Below are positions 12,502-13,133 of a stretch of DNA of 21,382 bases, in pieces. The stretch is from a virus (Duplodnaviria; Heunggongvirae; Uroviricota; Caudoviricetes). The translations under genes were made by a program, and so were the position numbers. How positions within the stretch are numbered: position 1 is the first letter of the stretch; each line of letters starts with the position of its first letter. Below the pieces are notes generated by a model, which did not search any database, had not been told where the DNA came from, and was given only the letters and a program-made list of their open reading frames with translations. The DNA lies in IMG/VR virus record IMGVR_UViG_2874962485_000007, one strand, 5' to 3'.

Positions 12502-12649
12502 CGTGCGGTGTCTTGATGAATAAAATTTAGAATAACCTAAGGAGGGTGATCAAGATTTTTGTGTAGAAAAACCTAAGTTTTTTGATGTAAAAAACACAAG
12601 TGTTTGAAAGTTTGTGCTTTTTATTACAGGGTGTGGAGAAAAAAGGGGA
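12502..12649 (-). promoter_or_regulatory. Putative promoter/operator region of the minus-strand small-gene operon
   Basis: Two direct copies of AACCTAAG (12535..12541, 12571..12577) and a perfect 14-bp palindrome AAACACAAGTGTTT (12592..12605) between the dicA-like stop and the first small gene. Confidence 0.4.
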
Positions 12650-13057
12650 TTATTTGTTTGCGCTTCTTTTGCGAGCTTTGAGTAGTTCTTCAAAAAGTTT
12701 GTTGAAATTTTCAACTCGAGCACGCATCTCTGACAACAGGGCCTTTTGCTCTGACTCAGGCAGTGCGTCGAACAGTTGAAGTAACTCTTTTTGATCTTCT
12801 GTCAGAATGGCTGGCTGATTATCCGGGATCGGTTCGCCTGGTTGTTTATCTTCATCCCCAAAAAGAAGCCAAGTCGGTGAGCACTGAAGCGCTTGGCTCA
12901 GTGCGAATAATCTTTTCCCCGCCGGCTGTGTTTCATCTCTTTCCCATTGAGAAATTGTTACGTGAGCCACTTTGACCAGCTTACCTAATGCGGCCTGAGA
13001 CAGTTTTAATTTTTTACGCCTATGTAAGAGGCGAGCACCGAAGGTTTCGTTTTTCAT
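12650..13057 (-). CDS. dicA: DicA-like XRE-family HTH repressor (prophage immunity repressor)
   Basis: 135-aa protein; HTH segment LSQAALGKLVKVAHVTISQWERDETQPAGKRLFALSQALQCSPTWLLFGDEDKQP and C-terminal ...ALPESEQ...MRARVENFNKLFEELLKARKR match E. coli DicA as recalled. Divergent from the Cro-like gene. Confidence 0.8.
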   Translation of the reverse strand: MKNETFGARLLHRRKKLKLSQAALGKLVKVAHVTISQWERDETQPAGKRLFALSQALQCSPTWLLFGDEDKQPGEPIPDNQPAILTEDQKELLQLFDALPESEQKALLSEMRARVENFNKLFEELLKARKRSANK

Positions 13058-13133
13058 ATTAGGGAATTCTAATTTTTCTTGACTTAGGTTTCTCTACGGC
13101 CTGGTTTCCTTAGGAAAATCTAAGGAGCTCGAT
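13058..13133. promoter_or_regulatory. Divergent dicA/dicC-like promoter-operator region
   Basis: Three CTTAGG/CTAAGG half-sites (13083..13088, 13109..13114, 13120..13125) in a 76-bp divergent intergenic region, the same hexamer as the repeats at 12536 and 12572. Confidence 0.45.

What the first reader, a model, noticed from the sequence alone, without database searches (positions are those of the whole stretch)
12502..13133. Repeated CCTAAG/CTTAGG half-sites and a 14-bp palindrome flank the dicA-like repressor gene on both sides
AACCTAAG occurs twice (12535, 12571) in the region between the dicA-like stop and the downstream small genes, and CTTAGG/CTAAGG three times (13083, 13109, 13120) in the divergent dicA/dicC-like intergenic region. 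A perfect palindrome AAACACAAGTGTTT sits at 12592..12605. These are candidate operator half-sites for the DicA-like and Cro-like proteins controlling both the immunity switch and the downstream operon (small genes, DicF-like RNA, Rha-like gene).
Basis: seen in the sequence. Interest (0 to 1): 0.5.

Follow-up and report, generated by a model that had tools for sequence, protein, structure and literature searches.

The report
Prophage repressor operators flanking dicA-like gene
The repeated CTTAGG/CCTAAG hexamers are halves of five 18-bp operator sites of a P22/Qin-type prophage immunity switch, an ordinary and well-understood kind of element, and the "palindrome" is most likely part of the repressor gene's terminator hairpin.

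Summary
The hexamers exist, though two coordinates are off by one. As hexamers they are not enriched in the window.

They are halves of five 18-bp imperfect palindromes, xCTTAGG-N4-TCTAAxx, with core TTAG-N6-CTAA. Three lie between the divergent dicA-like and dicC-like genes, and two lie at the promoter upstream of the ydfA-like gene. This clustering never arose in shuffles.

- **Layout:** the sites cover the -35, -10 and +1 positions of the predicted lytic promoters and the predicted leaderless dicA promoter. Their placement is collinear with P22 OR1-3/OL1-2 and with Qin Oa/Om/Oc and dicBp.
- **Shared core:** the core matches the genetically tested K-12 DicA operator Oc.
- **Conservation:** in about 80 related prophages the sites stay nearly invariant while neighbouring intergenic bases vary.
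- **Covariation:** across DicA-family loci, half-sites change together with the helix-turn-helix sequence.

The "perfect 14-bp palindrome" is not perfect: it has 6-bp arms around a non-symmetric AA. It lies in the loop and 3' arm of a 12-bp A/U-flanked hairpin just after the dicA stop codon. The hairpin keeps its position in relatives while its stem sequence turns over, so it is probably a terminator that insulates the downstream operon.

This is a new specificity variant of a known system. Binding itself was not tested.

The parts
13108..13125 (+). ORc, the OR1/Oc equivalent: CCTTAGG-AAAA-TCTAAGG. It is the most symmetric site. It covers the predicted +1 of the dicC-like promoter and overlaps the dicC Shine-Dalgarno sequence (AAGGAG, 13122-13127).
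   Evidence: It is the top PWM score, 19.0 bits. It is the positional equivalent of K-12 Oc, TTGTTAGTTATGACTAACAA, and of P22 OR1. Its columns are nearly invariant in relatives.
13082..13099 (+). ORm, the OR2/Om equivalent: ACTTAGG-TTTC-TCTACGG. It lies in the spacer between the -35 and -10 elements of the dicC-like promoter.
   Evidence: (I2: 94% complementary to the OL2 site). Its centre is 26 bp from ORc and 25 bp from ORa.
13057..13074 (+). ORa, the OR3/Oa equivalent: TATTAGG-GAAT-TCTAATT. It abuts and overlaps the dicA ATG (13057) and contains the predicted dicA -10 element.
   Evidence: P22 OR3 sits in the same place directly before the c2 ATG, as does K-12 Oa. The site is invariant except for its centre in relatives.
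12525..12542 (-). OL1: CCTTAGG-TTAT-TCTAAAT on the minus strand. It overlaps the spacer and -10 element of the leftward (dicBp/PL-like) promoter.
   Evidence: It is nearly invariant while the 7 nt between it and the -35 element are hypervariable in about 46 distinct relatives. It is collinear with P22 OL1 and K-12 ATGTTAGTCATGGCTAATCT.
12561..12578 (-). OL2: ACTTAGG-TTTT-TCTACAC on the minus strand. It lies just upstream of the -35 element of the leftward promoter, with its centre 36 bp from OL1.
   Evidence: P22 OL1-OL2 spacing is 35 bp (my count).
12548..12553 (-). Predicted -35 element of the leftward promoter: TTGATC here, TTGACC in most relatives.
   Evidence: Read from the sequence. It aligns with K-12 TTGACC and P22 TTGACC. 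The consensus scan did not call it.
12524..12529 (-). Predicted -10 element of the leftward promoter: TAAATT with an 18-nt spacer.
   Evidence: Read from the sequence. It is conserved in relatives and positionally equivalent to K-12 TAATCT. This is an inference.
13079..13084 (+). Predicted -35 element of the dicC-like (PR-like) promoter: TTGACT.
   Evidence: The hexamer and its position are identical in K-12 and P22, and it is conserved in relatives.
13102..13107 (+). Predicted -10 element of the dicC-like promoter: TGGTTT here, TAGTTT in 67 of 76 relatives, with a 17-nt spacer.
   Evidence: It is the positional equivalent of K-12 TATCTT, whose use was supported by 5'RACE in PMC3441716.
13066..13071 (-). 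Predicted -10 element of the dicA promoter: TAGAAT, 8 nt before the ATG. This implies a leaderless or nearly leaderless dicA mRNA. No good -35 element is present.
   Evidence: Read from the sequence, and there is no Shine-Dalgarno sequence before the ATG. K-12 has TAGCAT and P22 has TAAGAT at the same place. This is an inference.
12588..12623 (-). Hairpin after the dicA stop codon: UAAAAAGCACAA, a 12-nt loop, then UUGUGUUUUUUA. It is the probable dicA terminator and insulator.
   Evidence: The fold has dG -9.6 kcal/mol and z -3.5. Hairpins with A/U flanks and unrelated stem sequences occupy the same position in 9 of 10 variants, including K-12 and phiES15. The terminator scan did not call it, because the stem has few G-C pairs and the loop is 12 nt.
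12650..13057 (-). Gene for a DicA-like repressor of 135 aa: a P22 C2-type HTH N-terminal domain plus a short helical C-terminal part.
   Evidence: It is 62% identical to K-12 DicA. It matches PF01381 and the P22 C2 N-terminal domain in PDB entries 1ADR and 2R1J at E=1e-21.
13134..13361 (+). Gene for a DicC-like Cro protein of 75 aa.
   Evidence: It is 75% identical to K-12 DicC and matches PF14549 P22_Cro at 49.7 bits.
12292..12447 (-). ydfA-like gene (DUF1391), the first gene of the leftward operon. It is preceded by a conserved leader of about 70 nt.
   Evidence: It matches PF07151 at 91 bits and aligns with K-12 ydfA.

Best explanation
The region is the immunity switch of a Qin/P22-type lambdoid prophage.

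Five 18-bp operators of the form xCTTAGG-N4(AT-rich)-TCTAAxx are the binding sites for dimers of the 135-aa DicA-like repressor. By family analogy, the P22-Cro-type DicC-like protein binds them too.

Right side (dicA/dicC intergenic region):
- ORc and ORm cover the +1 position and the -35/-10 spacer of the rightward dicC-like promoter. Repressor bound there shuts off dicC and the YdaT-like and replication genes behind it.
- ORa overlaps the -10 element and the start of the apparently leaderless dicA transcript. Occupancy there, by excess repressor or by the Cro-like protein, turns dicA down.

Left side (downstream of dicA):
- OL1 overlaps the -10 element and OL2 flanks the -35 element of the leftward promoter. 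That promoter drives ydfA and, originally, the DicF-like RNA and Ash/Rha genes.
- Between the dicA stop codon and this promoter, an A/U-flanked hairpin most likely terminates dicA transcription. This keeps constitutive dicA read-through from entering the repressed operon, which runs in the same direction.

Shown here: the sites, their non-random clustering, their conservation, their collinearity with P22 and Qin, and the protein homologies.

Inferred: which protein binds, the promoter hexamers, the leaderless start, and termination.
For: 1. Five matches to TTAG-N6-CTAA lie within 600 bp. No shuffle reached this. A PWM built from the sites separates them (14.2 bits or more) from everything else in 21 kb (8.8 bits or less) (circular by construction).

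2. K-12 DicA operator Oc (TTGTTAGTCATAACTAACAA) has the same core and the same position. A single-base change in it abolishes DicA-dependent repression in vivo (PMC3441716; sequence).

3. The DicA N-terminal domain is homologous to the P22 C2 N-terminal domain (E=1e-21; 69% identity over residues 21-68). The P22 C2 operators are ATTTAAG-N4-CTTAAAT, the same 7+4+7 geometry with a TTA core (PMC5175364).

4. Site order and spacing are collinear with P22.
- OR3 abuts the repressor ATG, and the TTGACT -35 element lies between OR3 and OR2.
- Centre-to-centre spacings here are 25 and 26 bp on the right and 36 bp on the left. In P22 they are 25 and 23 bp, and 35 bp.

5. Footprinting in 80 IMG/VR relatives.
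- Downstream region: mean column entropy is 0.15 (half-sites) and 0.10 (centres), against 0.52 for other intergenic columns.
- dicA/dicC region: 0.11 and 0.13, against 0.38.
- The 7 nt between the -35 element and OL1 are hypervariable next to an invariant operator.

6. Covariation with the repressor.
- Loci with the identical HTH segment keep CTTAGG/TCTAA, although the repressor is only 74-86% identical overall and the hosts include Pantoea, Erwinia and Enterobacter.
- Loci with other HTH sequences have other half-sites at the same positions: TGTTAGT, TGTTAGA, TTGAG, TTAAC, TTAAG.

7. Hairpin. It folds with dG -9.6 and z -3.5. Its position is conserved while the stem sequence turns over.
Against: - No binding data exist for this repressor variant.
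- In K-12, only Oc bound DicA in the in vivo assay; Om and Oa did not (PMC3441716). Some of the five sites may therefore be weak, may depend on cooperative binding, or may be mainly Cro sites.
- The consensus promoter scan found none of the three promoters in this window. The rightward -10 element here is TGGTTT, lacking the usual A at its second position, and the leftward -35 element is TTGATC.
- The whole 76-bp dicA/dicC region is highly conserved, so footprinting discriminates less well there.
- The hairpin has few G-C pairs and a 12-nt loop, and it fails the standard terminator criteria. RNAalifold gave no consensus structure because the stems are out of register in the alignment.
Confidence: 0.85

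Rival explanations
1. The sites are real operators, but only the Cro-like DicC protein or the YdaT/CII-like protein uses them. The DicA-like repressor would bind elsewhere or only at ORc.
For: In K-12, DicA bound Oc but not Om or Oa in vivo. DicC-like proteins in all these loci share a very similar HTH region. YdaT of Rac binds three operators in the racR-ydaS intergenic region (PMC11879457).
Against: The half-sites track the DicA HTH sequence across groups. The 7+4+7 geometry with a TTA core matches that of the homologous P22 C2 domain. The YdaT box (TGATT-N6-AATCA) is a different motif, and it is found separately at 13338-13355.
Confidence: 0.07
2. The repeats carry no binding function. They would be shared ancestry or composition effects of two AT-rich promoter regions, for instance an old OL/OR duplication.
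For: The pairs OL2 and ORm, and OL1 and ORc, are 82-94% alike over 16-17 nt, as a duplication would give. The hexamer itself is not enriched in the window.
Against: Shuffles of the intergenic regions alone never give 5 hits. The sites are internally palindromic. They stay invariant while their flanks diverge, and they change in step with the repressor HTH in other lineages. The homologous K-12 site is functionally tested.
Confidence: 0.03
3. The AAACAC-AA-GTGTTT element at 12592-12605 is a protein-binding site in its own right, either a third left operator or a site for another regulator, rather than part of a terminator.
For: P22 has a third left operator at roughly this position. The loop motif TTTCAAA is conserved across relatives even where the stems change.
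Against: The element has no TTAG/CTAA core and scores low with the operator PWM. In relatives the arms are replaced by unrelated sequences that preserve RNA pairing of a longer stem with A/U flanks. A 6-bp arm with a 2-bp gap does not fit the 7+4+7 geometry.
Confidence: 0.1

Closest known systems
Qin cryptic prophage dicA-dicC immunity locus and dicBp of E. coli K-12 (Bejar et al. 1988; Yun et al. 2012, PMC3441716; Ragunathan et al. 2023, PMC10448788)
   Same: - The gene order is the same: ydfA, then dicA, then a divergent dicC followed by a ydaT/ydfX-like gene.
- The repressor is a 135-aa protein without a cleavage domain (62% identity), and the Cro-like protein is a DicC homologue (75% identity).
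- The dicA/dicC region holds three sites, and there are further sites at the downstream promoter.
- The operators share the TTAG-N6-CTAA core and sit in the same positions relative to the TTGACT -35 element and the repressor ATG.
- A hairpin follows the dicA stop codon in both.
   Different: - The half-site flanks differ: CCTTAGG/TCTAAGG here, TGTTAGT/ACTAACA in K-12.
- HTH helices 2 and 3 differ, so this is probably a separate immunity specificity.
- In this window the middle site is a good match to the consensus. K-12 Om is poor and did not bind DicA.
- The dicB gene is absent from the window, and the DicF-like RNA scores below the Rfam threshold and is separated from the promoter by IS elements.
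Phage P22 immC: C2 repressor, Cro, and operators OR1-3 and OL1-3
   Same: - The repressor N-terminal domain is homologous (E=1e-21), and the Cro-like protein is of the P22_Cro family.
- The operators are 18 bp in a 7+4+7 layout with a TTA core and an AT-rich centre.
- Operator order, spacing and promoter placement are collinear.
- OR3 abuts the repressor start codon.
   Different: - The half-site is TTAGG here and TTAAG in P22. Residue 32 is His here and Asn in P22.
- The repressor lacks the RecA-cleavable C-terminal domain: 135 aa here against 216 aa.
- Only two left operators are evident.
- No nutL/gene 24 (N) module follows the left promoter. The operon begins with ydfA instead.
Lambda cI/cro OR/OL genetic switch
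   Same: The logic is the same: divergent repressor and cro genes share a tripartite operator, a second operator set sits at the leftward lytic promoter, and the repressor mRNA is leaderless from a weak promoter.
   Different: The operators have no sequence similarity to lambda's. The repressor fold subclass and oligomerisation domain differ. Control is probably through an antirepressor rather than RecA cleavage, as shown for Qin in PMC10448788.

Membership tests
Qin-type DicA/DicC immunity locus | DicA homologue: short (about 135 aa) HTH repressor with no S24 peptidase domain | tested here: met
   It is 62% identical over 131 aa to K-12 DicA. Pfam finds only HTH families.
Qin-type DicA/DicC immunity locus | Divergently transcribed DicC (P22_Cro family) gene | tested here: met
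   It is 75% identical to K-12 DicC and matches PF14549 at 49.7 bits against a cut-off of 30.2.
Qin-type DicA/DicC immunity locus | Inverted-repeat operator overlapping the dicC promoter, equivalent to Oc | tested here: met
   ORc at 13108-13125 has the same TTAG-N6-CTAA core and the same position after the TTGACT-17-(-10) elements as K-12 Oc. Its flanking bases differ.
Qin-type DicA/DicC immunity locus | Operator-controlled promoter downstream of dicA that drives ydfA...dicF-dicB | tested here: inconclusive
   The promoter, its operators and ydfA are present and collinear with K-12. No dicB was found (tblastn). DicF scores 28.6 bits against a gathering score of 48 and lies beyond a block of about 4 kb of IS elements.
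Qin-type DicA/DicC immunity locus | DicA protein binds the operators and represses transcription | not testable with these tools
   This needs EMSA, footprinting or reporter fusions.
P22 C2-type repressor/operator system | Repressor N-terminal domain of the P22 C2 HTH type | tested here: met
   phmmer against PDB finds 1ADR, 2R1J and 3JXB at E=1e-21, covering residues 2-69.
P22 C2-type repressor/operator system | 18-bp operators: 7-bp inverted half-sites with a TTA core around a non-contacted 4-bp centre | tested here: met
   All five sites fit xxTTAGG-N4-TCTAxxx with AT-rich centres. The P22 consensus is ATTTAAG-N4-CTTAAAT.
P22 C2-type repressor/operator system | P22 operator specificity (TTAAG half-site) | tested here: not met
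   The half-site is TTAGG/TTAGA in all ten halves. True P22-type loci keep TTAAG together with the SNVAISQW helix (L121 and L123).
P22 C2-type repressor/operator system | RecA-cleavable C-terminal (S24) domain | tested here: not met
   The protein is 135 aa with no Peptidase_S24 hit. P22 C2 is 216 aa.
Rho-independent terminator (for the 12588-12623 hairpin) | G+C-rich stem, short loop, 3' U-run | tested here: inconclusive
   A U-run is present and the 12-bp stem folds with dG -9.6 and z -3.5. The stem has only about 3 G-C pairs and the loop is 12 nt, so the scan did not call it. Position-conserved hairpins in relatives support a structural role.

The most novel reading that the evidence does not exclude
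This operator/HTH combination (CTTAGG-N4-TCTAA with the helix segment SQAALGKLVKVAHVTISQWERDETQP) would be a distinct immunity specificity, heteroimmune to Qin. It is kept unchanged across prophages of Escherichia, Enterobacter, Pantoea and Erwinia. Its matched site pairs (OL1 with ORc, OL2 with ORm) lie about 520-580 bp apart around the repressor gene. DicA oligomers could bridge them into a small repression loop enclosing dicA, a miniature of the lambda OL-OR loop, made by a repressor that lacks the classical C-terminal domain.
Probability: 0.15. Interest if true: 0.4.

Novelty: new member of a known kind. Interest (0 to 1): 0.2.

Why it matters
- **Annotation:** it pins down the operator code of a common DicA-type prophage repressor found in many E. 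coli/EHEC (PPompW-type) and other enterobacterial prophages. These immunity regions can then be annotated, and cross-immunity between resident prophages predicted.
- **Specificity data:** it adds one more natural specificity variant (TTAGG against TTAAG and GTTAGT) to the P22 C2/DicA HTH family. This is useful for studies of the recognition code.
- **Limits:** it opens no new mechanism. The architecture has been known since the 1980s for P22 and Qin.

Tried and rejected
- **Hexamer enrichment:** enrichment over the whole window was rejected, with 5 copies observed against 7.5 expected. Only the clustering and the extended palindrome are significant.
- **Promoter and terminator scan:** it found none of the inferred promoters or the hairpin. 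Its only hits lie inside the dicA coding sequence and were disregarded.
- **Hairpin consensus structure:** RNAalifold on 10 hairpin variants gave no consensus structure, because the stems are out of register in the MAFFT alignment. I folded each variant separately instead.
- **Literature:** Bejar et al. 1986 (PMC311701) is not held, and the 1988 paper that defined Oa, Om and Oc is not in the library. The operator names and the Oc sequence are taken from PMC3441716.
- **Rfam at permissive threshold on 12280-13200:** only chance-level hits, so there is no known RNA family in the finding.
- **Third left operator:** I looked for one and found none. The best other PWM score in the window is 8.8 bits, inside dicA.
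- **Additional sites elsewhere in the window:** none were found, for example near the Rha/Ash gene.
- **First shuffle script:** it timed out and was rerun vectorised.

Full report
**What is in the sequence.** The window encodes four relevant genes.
- A 135-aa HTH protein on the minus strand at 12650-13057.
- A divergent 75-aa protein at 13134-13361, followed by a 140-aa protein at 13345-13767.
- A small gene downstream of the repressor, in the same direction, at 12292-12447.

Their identities are as follows.
- The 135-aa protein is 62% identical to E. coli K-12 DicA. It contains only HTH domains.
- The 75-aa protein is 75% identical to DicC and belongs to the P22_Cro family.
- The 140-aa protein belongs to the YdaT family, and the small gene is ydfA/DUF1391.

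The gene order matches the Qin prophage of K-12. It also matches PPompW-type prophages of EHEC, whose DicA is 97.8% identical.

**Checking the observation.** The hexamers are real. CTTAGG is at 13083 and 13109, and CTAAGG is at 13120.

Counted over the whole window the hexamer is not enriched, with 5 observed against 7.5 expected. However, four of the five copies lie in the two intergenic regions around dicA.

The repeat finder showed that the similarity extends well beyond six bases. There are 16-22-nt matches between the two regions, in inverted orientation.

Reading these matches gives five sites of one form. On the strand of the lytic transcript each reads xCTTAGG-N4-TCTA(A/C)xx, with core TTAG-N6-CTAA.

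| Site | Coordinates | Sequence |
|---|---|---|
| ORc | 13108-13125 | CCTTAGG AAAA TCTAAGG |
| ORm | 13082-13099 | ACTTAGG TTTC TCTACGG |
| ORa | 13057-13074 | TATTAGG GAAT TCTAATT |
| OL1 | 12525-12542, minus strand | CCTTAGG TTAT TCTAAAT |
| OL2 | 12561-12578, minus strand | ACTTAGG TTTT TCTACAC |

The core pattern with at most one mismatch occurs 11 times in 21 kb. Five of those fall here, including all three perfect matches.
- No whole-window dinucleotide shuffle out of 500 gave five hits in 700 bp or three perfect hits.
- No shuffle of just the two AT-rich intergenic regions out of 5000 gave more than three hits.

The pattern was read from these sites, so the test is partly post hoc. Its core, however, is independently that of the K-12 operator described below.

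The 'perfect palindrome' at 12592-12605 is present but is not perfect. It has 6-bp arms around a non-symmetric AA.

**What the sites are.** Four lines of evidence say they are operators.

1. *Shared core with a tested operator.* K-12 DicA acts through Oc, a 20-bp inverted repeat TTGTTAGTCATAACTAACAA that overlaps the dicC -10 element. A single-base change in Oc abolishes DicA-dependent repression in vivo (PMC3441716). The MG1655 sequence places Oc exactly where ORc lies here, after TTGACT, a 17-nt spacer and the -10 hexamer. K-12 Oa abuts the dicA ATG just as ORa does. Both share the TTAG-N6-CTAA core.

2. *Homology to P22.*
 - The DicA N-terminal domain is a close homologue of the P22 C2 DNA-binding domain (E=1e-21 to 1ADR and 2R1J; 69% identity).
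 - The six P22 C2 operators have the consensus ATTTAAG-N4-CTTAAAT. The TTAA methyl groups pack around Val33, and the AT-rich centre is not contacted (PMC5175364).
 - The sites here have the same 7+4+7 geometry, the same TTA core and AT-rich centres. Val33 is retained, while residue 32 is His instead of Asn.
 - The P22 sequence is collinear with this window. OR3 lies directly before the c2 ATG, the -35 TTGACT lies between OR3 and OR2, and OL2, TTGACC and OL1 lie downstream of c2.
 - Centre-to-centre spacings are 25, 23 and 35 bp in P22, against 25, 26 and 36 bp here.

3. *Phylogenetic footprinting.* Eighty IMG/VR prophage loci with 79-100% identical repressors were compared.
 - Downstream region: the 7 nt between the -35 hexamer and OL1, and the flanks of OL2, are highly variable. 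The operators are almost invariant.
 - Mean column entropy there is 0.15 for half-sites and 0.10 for centres, against 0.52 for the remaining intergenic columns.
 - In the dicA/dicC region the values are 0.11 and 0.13, against 0.38.

4. *Covariation.*
 - Loci whose repressors share the identical HTH segment (LSQAALGKLVKVAHVTISQWERDETQP) keep CTTAGG/TCTAA. This holds even at 74-86% overall identity, with diverged Cro genes, and in Pantoea, Erwinia and Enterobacter.
 - DicA-family loci with other HTH sequences carry other half-sites at the same positions. These are TGTTAGT (K-12 type), TGTTAG(A/G) (E. albertii, Citrobacter and Buttiauxella type), TTGAG (SISLWES type), TTAAC (FKWENG type) and TTAAG (P22 type).

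**How it most likely works.**

*Rightward promoter.*
- ORc covers the predicted start of the dicC-like transcript and its Shine-Dalgarno sequence.
- ORm fills the spacer of the promoter TTGACT-17-TGGTTT.
- Repressor at these two sites would block the rightward lytic operon.

*dicA promoter.*
- ORa contains a good -10 hexamer for dicA (TAGAAT) 8 nt before the ATG. There is no Shine-Dalgarno sequence and no recognisable -35 element.
- This points to a weak, activator-dependent, leaderless promoter like lambda PRM. Yun et al. inferred the same for K-12.
- Occupation of ORa would shut dicA off.

*Leftward promoter.*
- OL1 overlaps the -10 element (TAAATT) and OL2 flanks the -35 element (TTGATC) of the promoter for ydfA.
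- OL1 resembles ORc, and OL2 resembles ORm. Both of the latter have the degenerate TCTAC half.
- This suggests strong primary sites at the -10/+1 positions and weaker secondary sites filled cooperatively.

All of this paragraph is inference from position and homology. No binding was measured. In K-12 only Oc bound DicA in the in vivo assay.

**The palindrome.** On the dicA-sense strand, 12588-12623 folds as UAAAAAGCACAA, a 12-nt loop, then UUGUGUUUUUUA (dG -9.6 kcal/mol, z -3.5).

Relatives with unrelated sequence at this position also form A/U-flanked hairpins right after the dicA stop codon.

| Locus | Stem arms |
|---|---|
| L080 | UGCGUC / GAUGCA |
| L085 | AUCCGUUU / AAACGGAU |
| L086 | GCUAAGUUU / AAACUUAGC |
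| K-12 | AAAAGAUAAC / GUUAUCUUUU |
| phiES15 | AAAGGCAAC / GUUGCCUUUU |

Nine of ten variants fold, with z from -2.2 to -6.1.

dicA and the repressed leftward operon run in the same direction, so a terminator is functionally expected here. It is weak by standard criteria, and the scan did not call it. I hold this reading at about 0.6.

**Comparison with known systems and novelty.** This is a Qin/P22-type immunity region. It passes the tests for a DicA/DicC locus. The exception is the dicF-dicB cargo.
- No dicB gene is found.
- A DicF-like RNA at 7547-7597 scores below the Rfam threshold.
- That RNA is separated from the promoter by a block of about 4 kb of IS elements.

It works like the P22 C2 system but is not a member of it in two defining respects. 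The half-site is TTAGG rather than TTAAG, and there is no cleavable C-terminal domain.

I found no description of this particular operator specificity in the held literature. It is therefore a new member, a specificity variant, of a well-known kind. Interest is low.

**Verdict.** The operator interpretation is supported and sharpened to five 18-bp operators. The palindrome claim is rejected in favour of a terminator hairpin.

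Noticed in passing
window 13338-13355: The inverted repeat GTGATT-CATGAA-AATCAG overlaps the ATG (13345) of the YdaT-family gene. It closely matches the footprinted 'YdaT-box' of Rac (ATGATTCATGAAAATCAA) and of CP-933P (TTGATT-N6-AATCAA) reported in PMC11879457. It is likely an autoregulatory or CII-like site.
   Followed up: partly
window 13102-13107 and 12548-12553: Both lytic promoters carry minority, probably weakening, changes in this window. The rightward -10 element is TGGTTT, against TAGTTT in 67 of 76 relatives. 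The leftward -35 element is TTGATC, against TTGACC in most relatives, and only two other loci share both changes. This may reflect decay or silencing in an IS-ridden cryptic prophage.
   Followed up: partly
window ~7819-11856: A block of about 4 kb of IS elements is inserted in the leftward operon between the ydfA/ydfB-like genes and the DicF-like/Rha region. It comprises an IS2-like piece at 7810-8655 and IS66-type ORFs at 9161-11776. This is judged against the 99%-identical E. coli FDAARGOS_943 locus, which lacks the insertion. Further IS3/IS600-like copies lie at 2608-6076.
   Followed up: partly
window 7123-7597 (minus strand): A chain of small RNAs lies upstream of and overlapping the start of the Ash/Rha ORF (6514-7470). 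DicF-like is at 7547-7597 (28.6 bits, below the gathering score of 48). An STnc100-like match is at 7393-7535 (also below threshold). isrK is at 7235-7311 (61.5 bits) and C4 antisense RNA is at 7123-7210 (75.7 bits). This looks like a P1/Gifsy-type C4/IsrK-controlled antirepressor-like module.
   Followed up: partly
window 12448-12517 (minus strand): The roughly 70-nt leader of ydfA is strongly conserved, including the inverted repeat ACACCG-CA-CGGTGT and the hairpin CCCC-GGCGTTAA-GGGG next to the ribosome-binding site. Conservation extends to K-12 Qin and to Citrobacter, Buttiauxella and Cronobacter phage loci whose operators differ. Its function is unknown. No Rfam family matches it.
   Followed up: no
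L006 (Stenotrophomonas phage BUCT708 record) 2336-3021; L105, L110-L112, L117: In these DicA-family loci, the long leader downstream of the left promoter carries several hairpins of the type CCCGG-AAAGA-CGGG with GAAAGAC loops. They are reminiscent of boxB/nut-like or put-like repeats.
   Followed up: no
window 17118-17293: A Sok antitoxin RNA (RF01794, 117 bits) lies further right in the prophage. It presumably belongs to a hok/sok module, and hokD is annotated in the near-identical locus L001.
   Followed up: no
window 12604-12610 and the aligned column in relatives: The loop motif TTTCAAA (dicA sense) of the post-dicA hairpin is conserved even where the stems are completely replaced. The reason is unknown.
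   Followed up: no
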